This document shows, one piece after another, positions 865 through 62,300 of a stretch of DNA of 64,000 nt. The stretch is taken from positions 1 through 64,000 of the IMG/VR virus record IMGVR_UViG_3300008117_000010; one strand, written 5' to 3'. The notes under the pieces were generated by a model. That model saw nothing but the letters and a program-made list of their open reading frames with translations, searched no databases and had not been told where the DNA came from. The DNA comes from a virus. The translations under genes were made by a program, and so were the position numbers. Numbering within the stretch: the stretch's first letter is position 1; each line of letters opens with the position of its first letter.

Positions 865-948
865 TACCACTGACTGGAGTCGAACCAGCACGAACATTCT
901 GTTCAAAGGATTTTAAGTCCTTCGTGTCTACCATTCCACCACAGTGGC
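865..948 (-). tRNA. tRNA-Leu (anticodon UAA), CCA not encoded
   Basis: GCCACTG/CAGTGGT acceptor, D-loop TGGTA, AAGGA-CTTAAAA-TCCTT anticodon arm, long variable arm, GCTGG-TTCGACT-CCAGT T-arm. Confidence 0.95.
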
Positions 949-8466: not shown

Positions 8467-8742
8467 TCATAGATAATCGTCTTCGTTTCTAACATAACTT
8501 TCTGTATTGCGATATACATGATTCCAATATTCATCTTCTTGATACGGAGTCATGACATCATATTCGGTATGAACAATAAAACTTTTAATATCAATCCATT
8601 TAGCCTCACCTGTGTTCTCTAATTCAGACTTATACTTTTCAGCATGTTCTTCATTCAGAAAAACTCGGTGATACGTATAACCACGATCATTGTCCTGGTG
8701 AATGACCATAAATATCTTTTTCATAGGTTTGAAGATTTTCAT
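8467..8742 (-). CDS. Hypothetical protein
   Basis: HRVFLNEEHAEKY pattern typical of small phage early proteins. Confidence 0.65.
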   Translation of the reverse strand: MKIFKPMKKIFMVIHQDNDRGYTYHRVFLNEEHAEKYKSELENTGEAKWIDIKSFIVHTEYDVMTPYQEDEYWNHVYRNTESYVRNEDDYL

Positions 8743-9103
8743 AGGTTTGTAATTGTTTTGGGTCTATGGTATTATATATATTATAGGGATAAGAATAGAT
8801 TTCCCTATCACATGATATATAATAACATAAGTCATAAGGTTCTTGTGATACTTGAACGGGAATATATACTATAGAATTCCCGGATATTAAATTAAACTGC
8901 TCTTCACTTATCGCGGTCCCATGATATTTCTTATAATCACTATAACCATAAACACAAATATACTTTGTCTCATATAAACGAGGAAGATTATCAAAGTGTT
9001 TATTGATAATTGAATTCATTGCTGTGGTAATGATTTCTTTACAAGTAGAATTATACTTGGAGTTATCGAGTACCACACGGTAGATTGCATCCCTAATGTC
9101 CAT
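8687..9103 (-). CDS. Hypothetical protein
   Basis: ORF co-oriented with neighbours. Confidence 0.6.
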   Translation of the reverse strand: MDIRDAIYRVVLDNSKYNSTCKEIITTAMNSIINKHFDNLPRLYETKYICVYGYSDYKKYHGTAISEEQFNLISGNSIVYIPVQVSQEPYDLCYYISCDREIYSYPYNIYNTIDPKQLQTYENLQTYEKDIYGHSPGQ

Positions 9104-9153
9104 TGCTATAATATTTAATATGAAGAGGATTTGTTGGTGTAAAAAATAAAAAG

Positions 9154-9190
9154 AAAAGAAAGTGGGTATGGTTTATACCCACTCTCTTTC
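9154..9190 (-). terminator. Intrinsic terminator
   Basis: AGTGGGTAT-GGTT-TATACCCACT-type hairpin followed by a U-tract on the minus strand. Confidence 0.65.
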
Positions 9191-9208
9191 TCTCTGATAA
9201 TCAACTGT

Positions 9209-9607
9209 TTAACCATTATTTAAATCAGTTGGTGTCTCATTTTTTACTTGAGAACCTTGCGAACTACCTCTCATATTATTTATTATCTTATCACTAAACC
9301 TTCTCGCCATCTCATCTTTAAGAAATGGGTTGGTATCTACGATACTTTGTACTTTATCGAACTCTGAAGTATCGACAATGACGTTATCGTTAGTAGTAAT
9401 AGTGAGTTGTATATTATCTCCGTAATATACACTCTGAAAGAATAGTGGTGTACCATCGGTATCTTCTACAAGATAACCTTCATCTTCACGAAGTGTACGG
9501 TACTGTTCCACTTCTTCTTTTGTACCGCTTACACGGTATACAAATACGGTCTTAACACCGTTAACTCCTGCCTTTTTGTAGCTGTTCTTAAATTGTCCTT
9601 TTAGCAT
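9209..9607 (-). CDS. Early protein, paralogue of 10306..10683
   Basis: LKGQFKNSYKK...EQYRTLREDEGY...PLF aligns with LKAEFRNPFKK...EQYLRDKRDEGY...PLY. Confidence 0.8.
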   Translation of the reverse strand: MLKGQFKNSYKKAGVNGVKTVFVYRVSGTKEEVEQYRTLREDEGYLVEDTDGTPLFFQSVYYGDNIQLTITTNDNVIVDTSEFDKVQSIVDTNPFLKDEMARRFSDKIINNMRGSSQGSQVKNETPTDLNNG

Positions 9608-9656
9608 TTTACTTTAGATTTATATGATTTATTATTTACTTTGTGCTACAGTGCAC

Positions 9657-9800
9657 AAGTAAATAGAGAACGCGCGAAGCGCGTAGGCGGAGCGAAGCGA
9701 CGCGTAGAGAGAGAGGAGAGGGAGCGAAGCACTGGAGCGAGGGCACGCCGGTAGGCGTGCAATCGCGAAGTGCGAAGCGAGTCAAGAGAGAGGAAAGGAT
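9657..9800 (-). promoter_or_regulatory. GC-rich GCGAAGC/GCGGAGC hairpin cluster 1
   Basis: Four GCGAAGC, one GCGGAGC and a GCACGCC/GGCGTGC hairpin on the plus (template) strand upstream of the 9607 start. Confidence 0.55.
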
Positions 9801-10035
9801 AGAGTAAAGAGAACTAGGTAAAAATCATTCGTCGAAAAAAAGTATCGTAAAACACGGGGGTTTATCATAAAACTATTCGATTCATCGAGGATTATTCCAC
9901 GTTCGTCGAAATAGAGGATCGAGTATTATTCTATATTATATAATAACAAACCCTTTTCTTTGTGAGCCATGGTTTGCAGTGCCAATGCCATGTTGCAATT
10001 AGAAAAAAAAAGACAAGGCCTTTAGGCCCTGTCTT

Positions 10036-10257
10036 TTAAGATTTAGGAATTAAATCTATAGGGAGAGGATAATCAGTCCATTCCCATTCTTTTTCACCAT
10101 ATTGTTCCGTAGAAAATGGAACCTTAATGGTGTTGGAATACAGACTAATGACAATGACATCATTGCCATCATTCAAAAGCGGAAGCAAATGGTGGTCTGG
10201 CCAGTTACCTTTATACCTTTTTGTGGTATTCAAGGTCTTGTTGATTACTATGTACAT
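10036..10257 (-). CDS. Hypothetical early protein
   Basis: Bounded by hairpins at about 10011-10035 and 10282-10299. Confidence 0.7.
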   Translation of the reverse strand: MYIVINKTLNTTKRYKGNWPDHHLLPLLNDGNDVIVISLYSNTIKVPFSTEQYGEKEWEWTDYPLPIDLIPKS

Positions 10258-10305
10258 AGGTTTAATATTTAAATAAAAAAGAAACCCCCCGAAGGGGGCT
10301 TACTT

Positions 10306-10683
10306 TCATGAACCAAACAGGTCATCACTTGGATTATGCTGTGGTTCAGGTGCATGTGCCTTTGGTGGCGCAATCATTGCAAGCAATGTCTCGTCGCTCA
10401 AGTTTGGAAATTGCGCTTTCATGCTATTGAGCGCCTCCAATATGAACAAGTCAGGCCACCACTTGCCATCTTTGTTACGCACAACACTAACGCCAATAGG
10501 AATGACGGTTTTACTGATATACAATGGAATCTCGTTTCCACTATCATCAGTAGCGGGATAACCCTCGTCACGCTTATCGCGCAAATATTGCTCGATTGCA
10601 ATTTGGTTGCCTTTAAGAATGTAGGCGAACCTAATTTCACCGTCCTTTTTGAACGGGTTGCGGAATTCTGCTTTTAATTCCAT
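10306..10683 (-). CDS. Early protein, paralogue of 9209..9607
   Basis: See the paralogue alignment; acidic tail PSDDLFGS. Confidence 0.8.
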   Translation of the reverse strand: MELKAEFRNPFKKDGEIRFAYILKGNQIAIEQYLRDKRDEGYPATDDSGNEIPLYISKTVIPIGVSVVRNKDGKWWPDLFILEALNSMKAQFPNLSDETLLAMIAPPKAHAPEPQHNPSDDLFGS

Positions 10684-10712
10684 AATGATAAAGATTTTAA
10701 ATGGTTAAACAA

Positions 10713-10787
10713 TAAGTAAAGAGAGTAGACGCGAAGCGTCAAGGGAGTGCGAAGCGTAGCGAGCACGAGTCAAGAAAGAGGAAGACT
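10713..10787 (-). promoter_or_regulatory. GC-rich GCGAAGC hairpin cluster 2
   Basis: GACGC-GAA-GCGTC, GCGAAGCGTAGC; shares AAGTAAA-x-AGAG and CGAGTCAAGA-x-AGAGGAA with cluster 1. Confidence 0.55.
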
Positions 10788-10874
10788 TGTATTTAAAGGG
10801 ACTGGGTAATTCCTCCGGTGTTTGGTGTAACTAAAACACGGGGGATTTCTCCCCCGTGTTTATAGATGAAACAA

Positions 10875-11027
10875 CTACCGTACTATTTTGATTTGAGTAC
10901 GGCTAACATCCTGTCCCAATCTTTGGAATTGGGAATACACTTTGTCCATTGCATGCCACTTGGAGCATGCAAGCACCGTTATAATGCCTAACTTGGCAAC
11001 GGCGACTTTATAAGTTTGTGTGTCCAT
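10875..11027 (-). CDS. Small early protein (50 aa)
   Basis: MDTQTYKVAVAKLGIITVLACSKWHAMDKVY...; ATG directly follows the hairpin/U-tract. Confidence 0.6.
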   Translation of the reverse strand: MDTQTYKVAVAKLGIITVLACSKWHAMDKVYSQFQRLGQDVSRTQIKIVR

Positions 11028-11252
11028 AAAAAAAAAGAGAAAGAGGCGAAGCCCCTTCTTTGTGAGTGTGCAAAGAAAAATAACCCCCTATGAAGTTCAG
11101 GGGTTACGGTGGAAGGGCATATCTATAAGATACATTAACAGGGCATGTACATTGCAAGGACTCCCCCTTGGATGTACTTAAGTTCATATTGAAACATTGC
11201 ACCTGCATTTTATCCCCTAACTCAAGAAAAAAAAGAAGGGGCGAAGCCCCCT

Positions 11253-11399
11253 TTAGTTTAGTTTCGAGAGCACGCGCATGACGCACTCGTGTCCAACATG
11301 TTCGCCAAACGCGTCGGACATTTCACAATACAGGTTGTTTAACATGTTAATTGGAAAGCACCTGTCAAGCATTTCCAATTTAAAGTTCAAGTTGTCCAT
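11253..11399 (-). CDS. Small early protein (start MDNLNF)
   Basis: ATG follows one repeat and the stop abuts the next. Confidence 0.6.
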   Translation of the reverse strand: MDNLNFKLEMLDRCFPINMLNNLYCEMSDAFGEHVGHECVMRVLSKLN

Positions 11400-11433
11400 A
11401 GATAAAAAAAGAAGGGGGCGAAGCCCCTCCTTT

Positions 11434-11784
11434 CTACAAGCAGTCAATGTCCTCTATGCAAGCATCGTTGTTTTGCATAGCAGGCTTAAACAACCAACTT
11501 GTCTTGGGACGCATTTTCGTTTGCTCCCAAATGTTAATTGCCTCAACCTGTTGGTTAATTAAACCCTGATTGAATGCACTGTGAAATTGGTCAATTTCTT
11601 CCCGATTCGTAGTGCTAAATTCAATCGTCATTTTCCCGGATTTCCCTTGCCAAATTTTGCAATTAAAATTTGCAAAGTTCATCCATGAAAATGTCGCTAC
11701 ATTCATGCACAACTTTGCGCAGTAAATGTTGGTGGTTCCCAACTCATGAGTTGAGAAGCCAAAGGGTAATTTATGTCGTATCAT
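11434..11784 (-). CDS. Hypothetical early protein
   Basis: Bounded by a C-GAA-G hairpin upstream and a GCGAAGC hairpin downstream. Confidence 0.65.
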   Translation of the reverse strand: MIRHKLPFGFSTHELGTTNIYCAKLCMNVATFSWMNFANFNCKIWQGKSGKMTIEFSTTNREEIDQFHSAFNQGLINQQVEAINIWEQTKMRPKTSWLFKPAMQNNDACIEDIDCL

Positions 11785-11902
11785 AAGGAAAGATAGTAGT
11801 CACGAAGTGACAAGCTCGTCAAAAAAGAGGAGCGCATTGGAGTACGGGTGGGTGGGTGGGGACTAGGTAATAACCCATCCACCTTTTTAAAAAGAAAGCG
11901 GA

Positions 11903-12121
11903 TTACTCCGCTTTCTCTTGTAGGTAACACACAGCACCAATCATTCCGATTAGTGCAATTATTATCATTGGTATCGCGTAAGCTGGATGGCTTACGGCAC
12001 CAAAGTAATTTGAAATACTTACGGTTATTATACCGTAACACAATGCGGGCAACACGTATATAAGTGTTGCTATGCTCGCCATTGCTACAATGCCGAGCAT
12101 AATGTTTTTTGTTTGTCTCAT
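11903..12121 (-). CDS. Small membrane protein (start MRQTK)
   Basis: Two long hydrophobic stretches; ATG follows the repeat. Confidence 0.65.
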   Translation of the reverse strand: MRQTKNIMLGIVAMASIATLIYVLPALCYGIITVSISNYFGAVSHPAYAIPMIIIALIGMIGAVCYLQEKAE

Positions 12122-12204
12122 AAAGAAAAAAAGAAAAGGGCGAAGCCCTATTGTTTCTGTTGCCAAGGCAATGCCTCCGAGTCTTACTCATGAACTTGTT
12201 CGAG

Positions 12205-12396
12205 TCATTTCTCTCTTCTCCAACAATGGAGGTGAGAATTCTCTAAATCGATTGGAGTGACAACGATATCACGCAAGTGATACTTATGTCTCCATTGATT
12301 TAGAGCTTTCTGAATTTCCACGTTCTTGGAGGCGATAACAATCGCTTCCCACGTGGATTCAGAAACAACTCGAACAACGCGTTGTACGTTGTCCAT
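12205..12396 (-). CDS. Small early protein (start MDNVQR)
   Basis: ATG follows the repeat U-tract. Confidence 0.6.
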   Translation of the reverse strand: MDNVQRVVRVVSESTWEAIVIASKNVEIQKALNQWRHKYHLRDIVVTPIDLENSHLHCWRREK

Positions 12397-12433
12397 AAAG
12401 AAAAAAAGAAACCCCAAAGGGGTGATGATCTCC

Positions 12434-12664
12434 CTAAAATGGGAGATCATCATCTTGTTGAGTGTATGGAGGTTGCTTTGGTTCCTCCATTACCTCCATT
12501 ACCTCTATACCCCAACCCTCGCAAGAACGATTGGTACATAGAGTGACTTGTTCGATGATTACATCGAACGAGTCAACGGATCCCCCGTCATCATAACAGG
12601 GGACCATGAACTCACGATTACCAATCGTGAGTTCAGTGCCGCAGCACTTGCATTTTTTTTCCAT
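12434..12664 (-). CDS. Zn-ribbon-like protein with SSB-type C-terminal tail (start MEKKC)
   Basis: CKCC and CTNRSC cysteine pairs; ends QQDDDLPF. Confidence 0.7.
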   Translation of the reverse strand: MEKKCKCCGTELTIGNREFMVPCYDDGGSVDSFDVIIEQVTLCTNRSCEGWGIEVMEVMEEPKQPPYTQQDDDLPF

Positions 12665-12689
12665 GGTCTTTATATTTATATAAAGACAG

Positions 12690-12900
12690 GAGCCACGCAG
12701 TGGCAAAGCTTGTCATCGAAGATGCACTTGGAGGTGTCACTCGAGGCACGAGAGTGCACACCGGAGAGTGCAAGCTTGTCTGCGCCATGGTGAGTGGGGG
12801 GGGTGTGCGCAAGCGAGCGTGGTGGGCTTTGCGTGGGCAAGTGTGGGGGGTAGCCCCCGCGCGGCGCGAGGCCTGGGGTTCTTTCTATAGCGACCCCTCA
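12690..12900. other. GC/G-tract-rich strand-switch region (candidate genome terminus or origin)
   Basis: G8, GGG, GGG, G6 and G4 tracts and a GGGGG-TAG-CCCCC hairpin between the divergent arms. Confidence 0.45.
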
Positions 12901-12940
12901 CATTCTCTACCACACTATTTTTTTATTTAAGGATCTTTCA

Positions 12941-12948
12941 TATATTTG
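12941..12948 (+). promoter_or_regulatory. Bacteroidota-type -7 element TATATTTG
   Basis: TAnnTTTG 12 nt upstream of the GroES-like ATG. Confidence 0.5.
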
Positions 12949-12960
12949 AAAAAAAAACAT

Positions 12961-13242
12961 ATGCAAGTACTTGGAAATCGAATCATGGTTTTAAAACCAA
13001 AAGCACCAGAATCTACTATTCAGCTTACTGATGAATCTAAAGCAGAAATGGAAAAAGAGATGATGAAAAGATGGAGTAAGTTAGAGGTTACTCATATTGG
13101 GGATGAGGTGACTAAAGTTAGGGTGGGCGACCGCGTTTATATTGGTAGCGCTGCTTTACAAAACGCCGAAGTCATTCAACATGAAGATGATTTTTATTTT
13201 CTTATAAATGAACAATCCGTGTTGATATCGTATCGAAACTGA
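12961..13242 (+). CDS. groES: GroES-like co-chaperonin
   Basis: LGNRIMV, IGDEVTKVRVGDRVY and FLINEQSVL match the cpn10 pattern. Confidence 0.75.
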   Translation: MQVLGNRIMVLKPKAPESTIQLTDESKAEMEKEMMKRWSKLEVTHIGDEVTKVRVGDRVYIGSAALQNAEVIQHEDDFYFLINEQSVLISYRN

Positions 13243-13243
13243 C

Positions 13244-13264
13244 AAGGGGGCTGATGCCCCCTTT
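13244..13264 (+). terminator. Intrinsic terminator
   Basis: AAGGGGG-CTGATG-CCCCCTT hairpin right after the GroES stop. Confidence 0.6.
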
Positions 13265-13276
13265 AACTTTACTATT

Positions 13277-13423
13277 ATGGTAATTGAAATAGGATTTAAT
13301 ACTTTAACTAATTGGACGATTGGTTTAGCATATGTTCCTGGCGAAGATCTTGAAGGTGACGAATTTCAAGAATTTGAAATAGGCCTAGGATTTTTTTATA
13401 TTTCTTTTAAAGTCTATGTATAA
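13277..13423 (+). CDS. Small hypothetical protein (48 aa)
   Basis: MVIEIGFNTLTNWTIGLAY...EIGLGFFYISFKVYV. Confidence 0.5.
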   Translation: MVIEIGFNTLTNWTIGLAYVPGEDLEGDEFQEFEIGLGFFYISFKVYV

Positions 13424-13576: not shown

Positions 13577-14482
13577 ATGAGTTTAGGTAACGGTAATCCC
13601 AATGAAGGGAATAAAGGTTCAAATTATGATTTTGAACGTAGAAGTCTAAAATTATTAGAGGCAATTGCTAATGCAACGAGCGGAGGTTTAGGTGGTGTCA
13701 CATCTGTTGGCTTATCTATGCCTTCTGAATTTTCTGTAGCTAATAGTCCTATAATAACAAATGGAACACTTACAGTAACAAAAGCAAGTCAAAATCAGAA
13801 TTTAGTTTATGCTTCACCTGATGGTATAGCTGGTGTTCCAACATTTAGACAATTGGTTGCAGCAGATATTCCTGCTTTACCTTATGCTACATCTGTTGGT
13901 TTATCTTTACCAAGTGCTGATTGGACAATTACAAATAGTCCTGTTACTGGTAGTGGAACATTAACTGGAACTTATAAAACTCAAAGTGCTAATAGAGTAT
14001 TTGCAGGTCCAACTACTGGTGCTGCTGCTACTCCTTCTTTTAGAGCATTGGTAAGTGATGATATTCCAGGAATATTTAACCAAGACTTTTTAATGCTTGG
14101 TACAAGAGGTCTTAACGTTGCAAATAATACTACAGTGTTCGCTCCATTAGTTGGAGATATTGCATCAGCAACTGGATTTGCTGCCAGTGAAGTAAACGTA
14201 TATAATGTTTTGCCGTATAACATTACTGCAACGGGCATCAAAGTTTATATTGCTAACTCTATGCCCGCAACACAAACACTTACTGTTAGATTAAGAGATG
14301 ATGCTGCTAATACAGCATTACTCTTAACAATTAACCCAAGTTCAGTTGCAGGAGTTTATAGTGCAACAGGTAGTGTCAATGTTGATGCCGATTCACTTGT
14401 TAACTGGCAATTAATAAATAGTGCTGGAGGTTCAGCAACTGCTAACATAGTTTCCATTGTTTTATTATTTAAATATAGGTAA
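13577..14482 (+). CDS. Virion fibre-like protein
   Basis: Two TSVGLSxPS...NSPxxxxGTLT...PxFRxLVxxDIP repeats and a beta-rich C-terminal domain. Confidence 0.65.
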   Translation: MSLGNGNPNEGNKGSNYDFERRSLKLLEAIANATSGGLGGVTSVGLSMPSEFSVANSPIITNGTLTVTKASQNQNLVYASPDGIAGVPTFRQLVAADIPALPYATSVGLSLPSADWTITNSPVTGSGTLTGTYKTQSANRVFAGPTTGAAATPSFRALVSDDIPGIFNQDFLMLGTRGLNVANNTTVFAPLVGDIASATGFAASEVNVYNVLPYNITATGIKVYIANSMPATQTLTVRLRDDAANTALLLTINPSSVAGVYSATGSVNVDADSLVNWQLINSAGGSATANIVSIVLLFKYR

Positions 14483-59303: not shown

Positions 59304-62300
59304 TGGCTGAAGTAAATAGTACTCCAAATACTTTTGAAGTAAAAAGTGATTCAGGAAATACAATTAATGTTATTCCAAAAACACCAAGTACTTCATCCTC
59401 TAAATTATATGATGAACAAGCAACAGTTGGTAATAGTGTAAGTGGACCTAATCCTTCACCTACAGGTGTATCATCTACTGATCGTCTTAATAATGCGGTA
59501 TTAAAAATAAAAGATACTACCGATCCATATGCATATGCTAAACCATCAGCTTTTAATTCAACTCATACAGGATTAAACTTTGATAGATATTCAAATCATA
59601 GTCAATTTAGAAATTTAGGATTCAGTCCCTTTAGGGATAATGAAACTATTTATAATAATAATAGTTCATGGTTTGATGATTTTGGAAGAGCAGCGAGTCA
59701 ATATGGAACATTGTTTTCTGCAGGTGCAACATCCCTTTTTAAAAACTGGGGTTCATTAAGTAATACCACTCCAGACTTTGATTCTGCAAATACTATGGAA
59801 AAAGCCATGGCAATTGGTAGTTCTAGTAAATCAGGATTTGGAGCAAGCTTTACAAATTTCTTTTTAAATTCAGCATACACTGTTGGTGTAATTGCAGAAA
59901 TAGCTGCAGAAGAAATTGCACTTGGATTAGCAACGGGTGCATCTGGTGGTGGTGCTGCACCAGCAGCACTAACAAGAACAGGATTAAATATTGGTCGATT
60001 TACAAAAGCAATTGGTCAATTATTTAAAGGTGCAAATAATATTTCTACCGCTCGTAAAGTTTGGAATGTTGCAAAAAAGATAACACCCTTTGGTGATACT
60101 GCTGATTTAGCACGTGGATTAATAAAAGGAGAACGTGCAACATTAAGAGGAATTTATAAAGACTATAACTCTCTAGATAATTTTGCAAAATCAAAAGCAT
60201 TATTTGGTCAATTCTATCGTGATGTACGCGAAATAAATGCTGCCTCATCAGAATCTAAATTAGAAGCAGGAATGGTTAGTAATGAAGTTTCTGCTAAACT
60301 AATTGATGAATTCTACAGAGATAATGGTAGAATGCCTAACTTTAATGAATCACAAGTTATTCATAGTCAAGCACTTCAAGCTGGATCAGAAGCATATTTA
60401 TATAATATGCCTGCTATATACTTTAGTAATAAATTAGTTTTAGAAGGTGCTCTAAAAGGTATTAAACCTTTTAGATCAATAATGAATAAAGTACCTAATA
60501 ATCTTAGACCTGTTATTAAAACCGTGGATGGTAAAAAAACAGCAAAGGTTTATGATATGAATAATATCAAGAGTTATTTAAATCTTGATTCAATAAGAAT
60601 GTTAGGTAAAGCTTTACGTCCTAAAAATTTAGTTGGTACTGGTATCAGATATACTAGTGCAAATTTTGCAGAAGGTTTACAAGAAGTTTATCAAGAATCA
60701 TTATCTGCTGGACTTATAGATCACTATACAAATAAAAACTTTGGTCAAGAACGTCTTGGTCAAGCTGGATTATTAAATAGTTTAAGATTAGGTGCAGCAG
60801 AACTTGATAAGCAAAATATGGCTTTAGAAACATTTTTATCAGGTTTCTTTATGGCAGCTCCTATTGGAGGACTTCAAACAATTGCATTTAAGAAAGCTCC
60901 TAGATTATATCAAAAATATAGAAATCCAGAAAAGTATAAGCAATATATTGATGATAGAAAAAATGCAATTACAAAATTAGAAAATTCATTAAATGCAATT
61001 ATTAATGATCCAGCAAAATTTGCAAATGATTTTTATGCAAATGCAACTGAACAAAATAATTTAATTACAAGACAATTAGAATCAGAAGAAGCAGGAGATA
61101 TCGCCGGAGCAAAGAATATTAAAGAGCAATCTTTCTTTGAGCATGTTCACACTTTACTTAAACATAACATGCTTGATGAGTTTCAAACTCAAATGCGTGA
61201 TTTATTAAAGTTAGATGATACTTCATTAAAAGAAGCATTTGGTAATGGTCGTGAAAGCATAGAAGGGGATTCATTTAATGCTGGATTACGTGATCGTATA
61301 AATAAAGCTATATCACGTGCAGATCGTCTTAAAGAAAGATATGAAGAATCAAATGAAAAGTTTGTTAATGATTATAATCCAGATACTGAACGTGATTTAT
61401 ATGAGGCATTTGAAGAAGGAAAGAAAGCCTATTTATTTAATGAGTTTATGTTTGAACGAGTTGGCTCTAGAATACAATCAATGACTGGTTCATTAGCTAG
61501 TAATCCAAAACTATCACAAGTATTAGGTGGTGATATTGCAATATTATTTGATACAACTGCAGGAGGAGCATTACAAAGCAAAATAAAAAACTTAGAATCT
61601 GAAATTAAAATATACGAACAAGCAACTACAGCCGAAGACAAAGAAATTTTAAAACAAAAACAAGAAGAATACGAAGGGTTAAATACTTGGTATTCAGCTA
61701 TAACTGCATTTGAAAGAACATATGATGAAAGTGTTAAGTTAGAAAACTTTGATCCAAGCAAAGCAGAAAAATTTGTATTACAATTTCCAAAGGGATCTCC
61801 TATTGAATATACAAATACTAAAGGTGAAAAGGTTGAAGGTAAATTTGTAGGTGTATTAGGTAAAAATATATTAATTGAAATAGTAAATAAGAAAGGTAAA
61901 AAACAAAGAGTTGCAGTAGATAGATCAAAAACTGCATTTATGGGTGAGCAAGATATTGATTTATCAGCTCAAGAAATACAGTTTGGTGATCAAACTACTT
62001 TAGTAGATTCAATGGTTTATATGCTTGAAGCTTTATTTGGGCAAGTAGATAGCAGTTTTCAAATTAAAGGTATTGAACCATTAAAAGGATATCTTAATAC
62101 TCTTGCTGGACCCAATGGTCTTAATATGACCAAAGATGAAATGGGTGAGATATTTGCTAATGTTTTAGACATTGTGCGTTTAAGAAAAGATTCAGCACGA
62201 CACATTAATGCATTAAATATATTAACTGATCCTGATTACTTTAATTCAAATGTTGAAAAAATTGGCCAATTAATTAGTACAGCAAATCGCTTAGCTAAAA

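What the first reader, a model, noticed from the sequence alone, without database searches (positions are those of the whole stretch)
10000..12430. Early genes as cassettes bounded by N4-like template-strand hairpins: candidate promoters of a crAss-like virion RNA polymerase
Seen: almost every small gene is bounded by stop codon - GC hairpin - T-tract - ATG with little or no room for a conventional promoter. On the template (plus) strand the element reads ..TCCAT-A(n)-GAAG/GAAA..-GGC-GAA-GCC (loops at about 11046, 11241, 11418, 12140), CCCCC-GAA-GGGGG (10286), GTCAC-GAA-GTGAC (11799) and ACCCC-AAA-GGGGT (12411). Established: N4 virion RNAP promoters are template-strand hairpins with a purine triloop followed by an A run and CC, and phi14:2-type crAss-like phages package an RNAP that prefers ssDNA. 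In RNA most copies give GC-UUC-GC rather than the stable cUUCGg, so the loop looks selected as DNA. Inference: these are vRNAP promoters, possibly doubling as host-RNAP terminators, giving near-leaderless early transcripts.
Basis: partly seen in the sequence, partly recalled or inferred. Interest (0 to 1): 0.88.

Follow-up and report, generated by a model that had tools for sequence, protein, structure and literature searches.

The report
Template-strand mini-hairpins in phage early genes
The first 3.3 kb of early genes of an uncultured crAss-like phage hold 16 tiny hairpins whose loops are extra-stable only as DNA on the transcribed strand. They are the same kind of signal that the unrelated phage N4 uses as promoters for its injected RNA polymerase, but six of them also look like ordinary terminators, and no transcript data could be obtained.

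Summary
Observation confirmed and extended. The window is part of a 110.5-kb crAss-like phage that encodes a 4181-aa homologue of the phi14:2 virion RNA polymerase (DFDVD motif). A GC-rich island (9.6-12.9 kb, 41-49% GC against 31%) at the head of the leftward early genes holds 16 C-GNA-G mini-hairpins on the template strand and 1 on the other; shuffles give 2.2. Ten are exact GCGAAGC.

The elements fall into two classes:
- Six T-type copies have an A-tract, a GC stem and a U-tract, directly after a stop codon. They score as intrinsic terminators, and relatives have ordinary terminators at the same junctions.
- Four P-type copies, plus six 2-bp mini-hairpins, have no U-tract. They lie in the long spacers that head four transcription units and are the better promoter candidates.

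All ten larger copies share covarying stems, an invariant C:G closure, a pyrimidine tract and a T-purine step 15-16 nt after the stem, which is often the ATG.

The N4-like promoter reading is partly supported and unproven. No RNA data could be reached. This scan has noted similar hairpins in several other genomes; I did not check those notes.

The parts
9600..12950 (.). GC-rich immediate-early island at the head of the leftward gene block; it contains every element below
   Evidence: GC 0.41-0.49 against 0.28-0.34 in the flanks. The divergent strand switch lies at 12664/12961.
12692..12704 (+). P-type hairpin R4, GCCAC-GCA-GTGGC on the template strand, 27 nt upstream of the gene A ATG. A second hairpin, CATC-GAA-GATG, lies at 12714-12724.
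   Evidence: no U-tract; RNA fold -6.8 kcal/mol
11799..11811 (+). P-type hairpin R3, GTCAC-GAA-GTGAC. In sense it is followed by TACTATCTTTCCTT and then the ATG of gene D. It lies inside a TTGACG-N18-TACTAT sigma-70-like match.
10728..10740 (+). P-type hairpin R2, GACGC-GAA-GCGTC, followed in sense by TACTCTCTTTACTT, 50 nt upstream of the gene G ATG. Mini-hairpins GCGAAGC (10749-10755) and GCGTAGC (10754-10760) lie beside it.
   Evidence: z = -3.9 (RNA) and -4.05 (DNA) against shuffles
9670..9684 (+). P-type hairpin R1, ACGCGC-GAA-GCGCGT, 68 nt upstream of the gene I ATG
9687..9778 (+). Four 2-bp mini-hairpins in spacer R1: GCGGAGC 9687-9693 and GCGAAGC 9692-9698, 9724-9730, 9772-9778
   Evidence: Stems of 2 bp are stable only as d(GCGNAGC) DNA, Tm about 76 C (PMC13037366).
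12411..12423 (+). T-type hairpin ACCCC-AAA-GGGGT. In sense it lies 10 nt after the gene A stop and is followed by TTCTTTTTTTCTTT and the ATG of gene B.
   Evidence: This is the only copy whose loop is not GNA.
12137..12149 (+). T-type hairpin AGGGC-GAA-GCCCT, followed in sense by TTTCTTTTTTTCTTT and the ATG of gene C
11415..11427 (+). T-type hairpin GGGGC-GAA-GCCCC, 6 nt after the gene D stop and 15 nt before the ATG of gene E
   Evidence: As RNA it extends to 11-12 pairs, -14.9 kcal/mol.
11238..11250 (+). T-type hairpin GGGGC-GAA-GCCCC, 2 nt after the gene E stop, followed by T8
11040..11058 (+). T-type hairpin. The core is GGC-GAA-GCC (11045-11053). As RNA it has 8 pairs including one G.U. 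It lies 17 nt before the ATG of gene F.
10286..10298 (+). T-type hairpin CCCCC-GAA-GGGGG, 7 nt after the gene G stop. This is the only copy that gives a cUUCGg tetraloop as RNA.
   Evidence: -14.7 kcal/mol
11893..11916 (-). Ordinary unit-end terminator with a GUAA-type loop and the stop codon in the loop. Two further ordinary terminators lie at 10834-10861 and 10008-10037.
   Evidence: Their loops are RNA-type, not GNA on the template.
9781..9793 (+). Conserved spacer box GTCAARARAGAGG (sense CCTCTYTYTTGAC), also at 10769-10781 and 11818-11830. A second box, RACTRGGTAAW, lies at 9812-9822, 10800-10810 and 11861-11871.
9209..12664 (-). Nine small early genes: A 12434-12664, B 12205-12396, C 11903-12121, D 11434-11784, E 11253-11399, F 10875-11027, G 10306-10683, H 10036-10257, I 9209-9607
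   Evidence: None has a PHROG family. G and I are paralogues. F has a homologue in L151 and I has one in G002; I also aligns at 29% identity with an ORF of G003.

Best explanation
The island carries one lineage-specific family of early-transcription signals built on a DNA mini-hairpin, C-GNA-G, that folds on the template strand. The family has two functional classes.

Four P-type copies, with their satellite 2-bp mini-hairpins, lie in the long pyrimidine-rich spacers that head four transcription units. They are the most likely start signals for the injected two-barrel virion RNA polymerase.

The proposed mechanism is inferred by analogy with N4:
1. Negative supercoiling extrudes the inverted repeat.
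2. The GNA loop keeps the template arm folded, while the TTC arm of the other strand can be melted.
3. A polymerase that prefers single-stranded DNA gets an entry point.
4. It starts at the conserved T-purine step 15-16 nt beyond the stem.

Six T-type copies have the same hairpin but add an upstream A-tract and a U-tract and sit directly after stop codons. They most likely act first as intrinsic terminators or attenuators between early genes. Whether they also restart transcription at the adjacent ATG, giving leaderless mRNAs, is open.

Shown: the elements, their strand bias, the covariation, the presence of the RNAP gene and the terminator hallmarks. Inferred: which enzyme reads them, hairpin extrusion and the start site.
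For: - Strand-exclusive C-GNA-G: 16 against 1, shuffles 2.2; ten exact GCGAAGC copies, confined to the island on the + strand.
- The middle loop base varies (A, G, C, T) while the G, the A and the C:G closure stay fixed. This is the d(GCGNAGC) rule (PMC13037366) and the N4 promoter rule (PMC4496689). N4 P1 and P2 read GTTGC-TTC-GCAAC and AAGAAGC-TCC-GCTTCTT in sense.
- The RNA complement fits a UNCG tetraloop in only one copy.
- The stems covary: 100% of cells paired, 13 double-sided changes, 0 of 500 shuffles as high. The closing pair is C:G in 10 of 10.
- The P-type copies have no U-tract, lie 100-250 nt after strong ordinary terminators, and share the module hairpin plus TACTNTCTTTMC.
- All ten copies keep a T-purine step at a fixed distance from the stem.
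- The five genes that start there have 96% pyrimidine at -14 to -1. The other 85 genes have 48% A, and only 1 of 85 is this pyrimidine-rich.
- The genome encodes a gp66-type RNAP. For that enzyme, ssDNA preference and rifampicin-resistant early transcription are published, and no promoter motif was found (10.1101/2020.03.07.982082).
- Relative G003 has a GC island at the same place, with two C-GAA-G template hairpins of different stem sequence upstream of its copy of gene I; that ORF aligns with gene I at 29% identity but gave no tblastn hit.
- T-type copies as terminators: the scan finds 33 terminator-like sites against 4.1 in shuffles, RNA folds of -6.7 to -14.9 kcal/mol, and ordinary terminators at equivalent junctions in relatives.
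Against: - No transcript 5' or 3' ends were available.
- The hairpin family is absent from the closest complete relatives G001 and G002 and from the phi14:2 early region. It is therefore not a general crAss-like signal.
- Relative G001 uses a linear 21-nt box (13 copies) after each terminator and has no hairpin.
- The ten copies are paralogues, so shared flanks may reflect descent.
- In R1-R3 a separate conserved box directly after the unit-end terminator could be the real promoter. The hairpins would then lie in transcribed leaders.
- R3 also matches a sigma-70-type promoter.
- The physical genome ends are unknown. The 114-nt terminal repeat looks like an assembly overlap.
Confidence: 0.4

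Rival explanations
1. All ten hairpins, including the six with A-tracts, are promoters of the virion RNAP. Each element ends the upstream transcript and restarts at the first purine after the pyrimidine tract, usually the A of the ATG, giving monocistronic leaderless early mRNAs.
For: - The stem-to-ATG distance is tight (14-17 nt in five genes), while the stop-to-stem distance varies from 2 to 55 nt.
- In three copies the template is pure purine from the stem to the T that encodes the A of the AUG.
- The conserved block runs on into ATGGAC.
- TATGGAC also recurs five times in non-coding DNA of the G003 early island.
- The five coupled genes lack the genome's A-rich leader.
- In relative G001 every early gene has its own promoter-like box at the same position.
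- The phiKZ two-barrel RNAP uses a start-site TATG motif that is read after strand opening (PMC12809450).
Against: - The terminator hallmarks (A-tract, U7-9, position just after a stop codon) need no promoter function.
- One stem needs a G.U pair, so it is weaker on the template strand.
- At the orthologous gene F junction, L151 has an ordinary tetraloop terminator 33 nt from the ATG.
- A single element that both stops and starts the same enzyme has not been shown.
Confidence: 0.22
2. Everything works at the RNA level. T-type copies are intrinsic terminators or attenuators, or 3'-end stabilisers. P-type copies and the mini-hairpins are parts of transcribed 5' leaders or early non-coding RNAs. 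The GAA/UUC loop is inherited by duplication and has no DNA role.
For: - Strand bias is equally expected for RNA elements.
- The terminator scan and the RNA fold energies fit this reading.
- There is a G.U pair in the 11048 copy and a cUUCGg loop in the 10291 copy.
- phi14:2 makes abundant early non-coding RNAs from long intergenic regions.
- A conserved box sits upstream of the spacers and could be the real promoter.
Against: - Stems of 2 bp are not stable as RNA, yet six such copies keep the exact GC-GNA-GC form.
- The loop and closure are invariant while the stems have turned over.
- C-UNC-G has no known RNA rationale.
- The ordinary terminators of the same island carry RNA-type loops instead.
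- P-type copies placed after a strong terminator have no terminator logic.
Confidence: 0.2
3. The hairpins are single-strand initiation signals or part of a replication origin. In this reading, mini-hairpins on one strand are primase or helicase loading sites, as at the phage G4 origin and RSF1010 ssiA.
For: - GCGAAGC-type mini-hairpins are documented at priming sites (PMC13037366).
- Cumulative GC skew reaches its minimum near 9-9.5 kb, next to the island.
Against: - The copies are placed with gene-level regularity (stop codon, hairpin, tract, ATG).
- They share a downstream box that includes the start codon.
- The skew change also follows the switch in gene direction.
Confidence: 0.06
4. The repeats are double-stranded operator sites for an early regulator protein that binds GC-N3-GC repeats, and hairpin formation is irrelevant.
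For: The copies cluster in regulatory spacers and have fixed central bases.
Against: - The stems covary rather than being conserved in sequence.
- The strict orientation and the GNA rule are not needed for a duplex binding site.
Confidence: 0.05

Closest known systems
Early promoters P1-P3 of coliphage N4, and the nine early promoters of Pseudomonas phage LUZ7, read by the injected virion RNAP (Schitoviridae)
   Same: - A template-strand hairpin with a 4-7-bp stem and a 3-nt loop 5'-G-N-A-3' closed by C:G. N4 P1 has the same GAA loop (PMC4496689; PMC9163698).
- Multiple copies ahead of small early genes.
- The phage carries its own RNAP, by homology to a virion-packaged enzyme that prefers single-stranded templates.
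   Different: - The enzyme here is a two-barrel gp66/QDE-1-type RNAP, not a T7-like single-subunit one.
- There is no conserved -17 to +1 block with +1C at 11-14 nt. The conserved T-purine step is about 21-22 nt from the loop centre.
- Six copies carry a U-tract and an A-tract that the two N4 promoters I read (P1, P2) lack.
- No biochemical evidence exists.
Intrinsic (rho-independent) terminators
   Same: The six T-type copies have a GC stem, 7-9 U directly after it, an A-tract before it and a position just downstream of a stop codon.
   Different: - The loop is a strict triloop with a fixed sequence. All other terminator-like hairpins of this genome and its relatives have 4-8-nt loops.
- Four larger copies and six 2-bp copies lack the U-tract.
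- The next ATG follows at a fixed 14-17 nt.
d(GCGNAGC) mini-hairpin DNA (Hirao and co-workers)
   Same: Ten exact GCGAAGC copies plus GCGGAGC and GCGTAGC. The motif has a sheared G.A pair, a Tm of about 76 C and binds SSB poorly (PMC13037366).
   Different: That work describes a structural motif, not a biological system. Its documented natural uses are priming sites and the N4 promoters.
Early transcription of Cellulophaga phage phi14:2 by virion RNAP gp66
   Same: - A homologous RNAP, with DFDID there and DFDVD here.
- Small early genes next to long intergenic regions.
- Published ssDNA preference and rifampicin-resistant early transcription.
   Different: - No common motif was found upstream of phi14:2 early transcripts.
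- Its first 9 kb has no GC-stem GNA hairpins and no GC island.
phiKZ non-virion RNAP late promoters (5'-TATG-3' at the start site)
   Same: - A phage two-barrel RNAP whose only sequence signal sits at the start site and is read after strand opening (PMC12809450).
- Five of the ten elements here have TATG at the conserved T-purine step.
   Different: - It is a multisubunit enzyme of a jumbo phage.
- No hairpin is involved.
- The resemblance is a 4-mer and may be chance.

Membership tests
N4-type virion-RNAP hairpin promoter | Hairpin on the template strand with a 5-7-bp stem and a 3-nt loop | tested here: met
   Ten copies with 3-6-bp stems and triloops on the + strand, which is the template of the leftward genes.
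N4-type virion-RNAP hairpin promoter | Loop 5'-G-R/N-A-3' closed by a C:G pair | tested here: met
   Of 16 copies, 13 have GAA and one each has GGA, GCA and GTA; all are closed by C:G. One further hairpin has AAA. N4 P1 has GAA and P2 has GGA.
N4-type virion-RNAP hairpin promoter | Conserved -17 to +1 block with +1C on the template 11 nt (N4) or 13-14 nt (LUZ7) from the loop centre, so that the RNA starts with G | tested here: not met
   At 11-14 nt from the loop centre the sense strand is T or C in nearly all copies. The first conserved purine lies about 21-22 nt away.
N4-type virion-RNAP hairpin promoter | Read by a T7-like single-subunit virion RNAP (gp50 family) | tested here: inconclusive
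   PF00940 finds nothing in the genome, but the control genomes were also silent. The only recognisable RNAP is of the two-barrel gp66 type.
N4-type virion-RNAP hairpin promoter | Supercoil-driven extrusion, SSB dependence and rifampicin-resistant starts | not testable with these tools
Intrinsic terminator | GC-rich stem-loop followed within 0-2 nt by at least 5 T in 8, downstream of a stop codon | tested here: met
   Met by the six T-type copies; the stop codon lies 2-55 nt upstream. By my reading of the tracts, the four P-type copies and six mini-hairpins are not terminators: the loose scan also lists all four P-type copies, but their tracts are broken by C, A or G and have no run of U.
Intrinsic terminator | Stable RNA hairpin | tested here: inconclusive
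   Fold energies range from -6.7 to -14.9 kcal/mol. Two copies (12142 and 12416) are weak at about -6.8, and their z-scores are not significant.
d(GCGNAGC) mini-hairpin DNA | Sequence GC-GNA-GC on one strand | tested here: met
   Ten GCGAAGC, one GCGGAGC and one GCGTAGC, all on the + strand. Folding itself was not tested.
crAss-like virion RNAP (phi14:2 gp66 family) | DFDxD catalytic motif with I or V at the fourth position, in a giant protein of the virion gene block | tested here: met
   DFDVD at residue 2478 of the 4181-aa ORF at genome positions 69033-81578.
crAss-like virion RNAP (phi14:2 gp66 family) | Sequence similarity to gp66 and its orthologues | tested here: met
   tblastn gives 8e-10 to phi14:2 g066 and 1e-13 to 3e-19 to RNAPs of crAss001-type and other crAss-like phages, 96 records in all. 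There is no direct phmmer hit in the PDB.
crAss-like virion RNAP (phi14:2 gp66 family) | Packaged in the virion and active early | not testable with these tools
   Inferred from homology only.

The most novel reading that the evidence does not exclude
A two-barrel (RNAi/crAss-type) virion RNA polymerase has converged on the N4 solution. It uses extruded template-strand GNA mini-hairpins as promoters. In this phage the same 35-nt element also terminates the upstream transcript and restarts exactly at the next AUG, so the immediate-early genes are expressed as a string of leaderless monocistronic mRNAs.
Probability: 0.22. Interest if true: 0.85.

Novelty: new variant of a known kind. Interest (0 to 1): 0.6.

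Why it matters
The promoter of the crAss-like virion RNA polymerase has been unknown since the enzyme was described. The phi14:2 study found no motif upstream of early transcripts and showed only that the enzyme prefers single-stranded DNA.

This island offers short, concrete and mutable candidates: four unit-head hairpins and six hairpin-plus-tract elements. The strand and loop prediction is clear. A GAA to TTC loop swap or a strand swap should abolish function while leaving RNA stem stability unchanged.

If the candidates hold, hairpin promoters would be a convergent solution in two unrelated polymerase families that enter the cell with the DNA. Terminator-promoter fusion with leaderless starts would be a new way of packing early genes.

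If they fail, the island is still a clean example of an unusual, strand-specific terminator family.

Tried and rejected
- blastn of 9-14 kb against the phage collection found no match.
- Rfam found nothing relevant in 1-14 kb except a tRNA.
- PHROGs has no family for any of the nine island proteins.
- The search for related loci with gene 13577-14482, gene G and the G/I alignment found no relatives in viral contigs or in metagenome contigs.
- The search for homologous proteins for gene G returned only a 99%-identical copy.
No near-identical variants and no RNA reads could therefore be examined.
- Exact-pattern scans did not help. The T-type 20-mer hit two unrelated contigs with single copies, and the spacer box gave 110 single chance hits.
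- Three complete relatives found through terminase (70-73% identity) have none (G001) or only scattered (G002, G003) GCGAAGC copies, and none has the hairpin-plus-tract family. The only clustered template-strand copies are four hairpins in the G003 island.
- The phi14:2 early region has no GNA hairpins.
- A T7-like RNAP was sought with PF00940 and not found, but the control was silent, so this says little.
- A UNCG-tetraloop reading of the RNA was considered and rejected. It fits only the 10291 copy.
- A sigma-70 promoter reading of the spacers was rejected as a general explanation. Only R3 has acceptable spacing, and the number of matches in the region equals the shuffle expectation.
- The 136-aa ORF 11781-12191 that overlaps gene C was judged spurious. 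It is low-complexity and reads through a hairpin and a terminator.


Full report
**What the DNA is**

The window is the first 64 kb of a 110,526-bp viral record with 31% GC. Its 114-nt terminal repeat looks like an assembly overlap, so the physical ends are unknown.

Terminase, portal and capsid match phage families. A 4181-aa ORF at genome positions 69033-81578, outside the window, carries DFDVD at residue 2478. It hits phi14:2 g066, annotated "catalytic RNA polymerase subunit", at 8e-10, and the RNAPs of crAss001-type phages at about 1e-13. The condition "no virion RNAP" is therefore not met.

Genes run leftward from 12664, across the record ends, to 87437. They run rightward from 12961. The finding thus lies in the first 3.3 kb of the leftward block. 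By analogy with phi14:2 this is the early block.

**The observation**

- C-GNA-G hairpins with a stem of 2 bp or more number 16 on the + strand and 1 on the - strand within 9600-12950. Dinucleotide-preserving shuffles give 2.2.
- With a stem of 4 bp or more there are 9, against 0.16 expected.
- GCGAAGC occurs ten times on the + strand, all in the island.
- No GC-stemmed C-GAA-G or C-TTC-G hairpin occurs anywhere else in the genome.
- The island is also a compositional island: 41-49% GC against about 30%.
- Terminator-like hairpins elsewhere in the genome have loops of 4-8 nt.

**Anatomy**

Read in sense, on the minus strand, the island is four units. Each unit begins with a long pyrimidine-rich spacer: R4 12665-12900, R3 11785-11890, R2 10684-10830, R1 9608-9990. 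Each ends with an ordinary terminator whose loop is RNA-type: 11893-11916, 10834-10861, 10008-10037.

The spacers align. They share the boxes ATTACCYAGTC and CCTCTYTYTTGAC and a core module. The module is a 5-6-bp hairpin with a TTC loop (TGC in R4) followed at once by TACTNTCTTTMC. I call these four copies P-type. R1 and R2 add six 2-bp copies (GC-GAA-GC and similar).

Inside the units, genes are separated by six T-type copies. These have the same hairpin, preceded by an A-rich run and followed by TTCTTTTTTTCTTT.

An anchored alignment of all ten larger copies gives these results.
- The stems covary. All cells are paired, 13 cells show changes on both sides, and none of 500 shuffles reaches this.
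- The closing pair is C:G in 10 of 10 copies.
- The loop is TTC in 8 of 10.
- A T-purine step is conserved 15-16 nt after the stem in all ten.
- In five genes (B, C, D, E, F) that purine is the A of the ATG.

**DNA or RNA**

Four observations favour selection on the template DNA.
1. The loop variants (GAA, GGA, GCA, GTA) keep the G and the A and vary only the middle base. This is the rule for the sheared G.A pair of d(GCGNAGC) mini-hairpins, which have a Tm of about 76 C and bind SSB poorly (PMC13037366).
2. Six copies have only 2 bp, which is meaningless as RNA.
3. The RNA complement forms a UNCG tetraloop in only one copy.
4. The unit-end terminators of the same island have RNA-type loops instead.

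The same loop class defines the N4 promoters. The review states that the C:G closing pair, the 5'G and the 3'A are required (PMC4496689). In the N4 sequence, P1 and P2 read GTTGC-TTC-GCAAC and AAGAAGC-TCC-GCTTCTT in sense.

- The T-type copies have an A-tract, a GC stem and 7-9 U.
- In four of five cases they lie 2-10 nt after a stop codon.
- They are called terminator-like by the scan: 33 sites against 4.1 in shuffles.
- As RNA several extend to 8-12 pairs through A-U and G.U pairs. The 11048 copy is weaker on the template, where the G.U becomes A.C.
- Relatives have ordinary terminators at the same kind of junction. G002 has hairpins with 4-6-nt loops plus TTTTCTTTTTT, then 16-25 nt, then the ATG. 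L151 has a tetraloop terminator before the gene F orthologue. G001 has a hairpin, a pyrimidine tract and then a separate 21-nt box, AAAGTCCTTAAT..AAAT, in 13 copies.

**What still favours a start function**

- The stem-to-ATG distance is tight (14-17 nt), while the stop-to-stem distance varies from 2 to 55 nt.
- In three copies the template is pure purine from the stem to the base that encodes the A of the AUG.
- The five coupled genes have 96% pyrimidine at -14 to -1. The other 85 genes have 48% A there, and only one of them is this pyrimidine-rich. These genes therefore do not use the genome's normal leader.
- The conserved block runs into ATGGAC. TATGGAC also occurs five times in non-coding DNA of the G003 early island.
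- In G001 each early gene has its own box at that position. In this genome no other repeated motif fills that role.

**Relatives**

Terminase finds several hundred relatives at 70-78% identity. Of three complete genomes, G001 and G002 have no clustered hairpin family of this kind. G003 has a GC island at its strand switch, and two template-strand C-GAA-G hairpins (stems GCGC and CGCC) lie upstream of its copy of gene I; that ORF aligns with gene I at 29% identity but gave no tblastn hit. The phi14:2 early region has none. The signal is therefore lineage-specific. That is what one would expect if promoters co-evolve with fast-evolving polymerases, but it removes comparative proof.

**Verdict**

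The DNA-hairpin reading of the loop is well supported. No transcript data could be reached.

Earlier notes of this scan describe template-strand C-GNA-G hairpins at early cassettes in several other phages with two-barrel RNAPs. I did not check them and do not count them as evidence.

Noticed in passing
window 12434-12664 (-); L151:200-343 (-); G002 about 61226-61660 (-): The first early protein (76 aa, four-Cys Zn-ribbon-like) ends in DDDLPF, which is the bacterial SSB C-terminal tip. The first early genes of relatives end in ...ETGLPF (L151) and ...DEDDGLPF (G002). N4 virion RNAP needs host SSB at its hairpin promoters, so this protein may be an accessory factor or an SSB-tail mimic.
   Followed up: partly
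G001 8639-13279, minus strand (locus L197): The box AAAGTCCTTAAT-N3-TNAAAT occurs 13 times, each after a hairpin plus pyrimidine tract and 17-26 nt before an ATG (36 nt in one copy). It is confined to the first 4.6 kb of that phage's early block. It is a clear candidate early promoter, with no hairpin.
   Followed up: partly
L214:12150-12410 (+), which is G003 92150-92410: Five copies of CTACTATGGAC lie within 250 nt of non-coding DNA in the G003 early island. The same TATGGAC forms the start of genes B, E and F here, and N4 promoter P1 reads ...GCAAC-TTATGGAC. This may be chance or a shared start-site box.
   Followed up: partly
G003 90-92.5 kb; G002 59-60 kb; G001 8-9 kb; window 9.6-12.9 kb: In G000 and G003 a GC-rich island sits at the head of the early gene block. 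G001 and G002 each have a single GC-rich 1-kb stretch a few kb inside their early block. The switch regions of G000 and G003 share TTCTATAGCGA.
   Followed up: partly
loci L218-L335 (IMG/VR contigs): At least 118 viral contigs hold three or more GCGAAGC on one strand within about 90 nt. Many are regular tandem arrays with a period of 14-20 nt in low-GC phages (for example L233, L238, L248, L306). This may be an unrecognised widespread use of DNA mini-hairpins. Their function was not examined.
   Followed up: no
window 12396-12453 and 11781-12191 (-): Gene B has in-frame ATGs at 12453 and 12450 that would read through the 12411-12423 hairpin. A 136-aa low-complexity ORF overlaps gene C in another frame and reads through a hairpin and a terminator. 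Both look spurious, but the true start of gene B is not proven.
   Followed up: partly
window 11085-11103 and 11105-11208 (-): A possible 34-codon ORF follows the 11243 hairpin. It is followed by its own terminator-like hairpin (CCCCT...AGGGG plus a T-run) directly upstream of the 11048 element, so two hairpins stand in tandem before gene F.
   Followed up: no
window 865-948 (-): A tRNA gene (Rfam 57.7 bits) lies in the leftward block.
   Followed up: no
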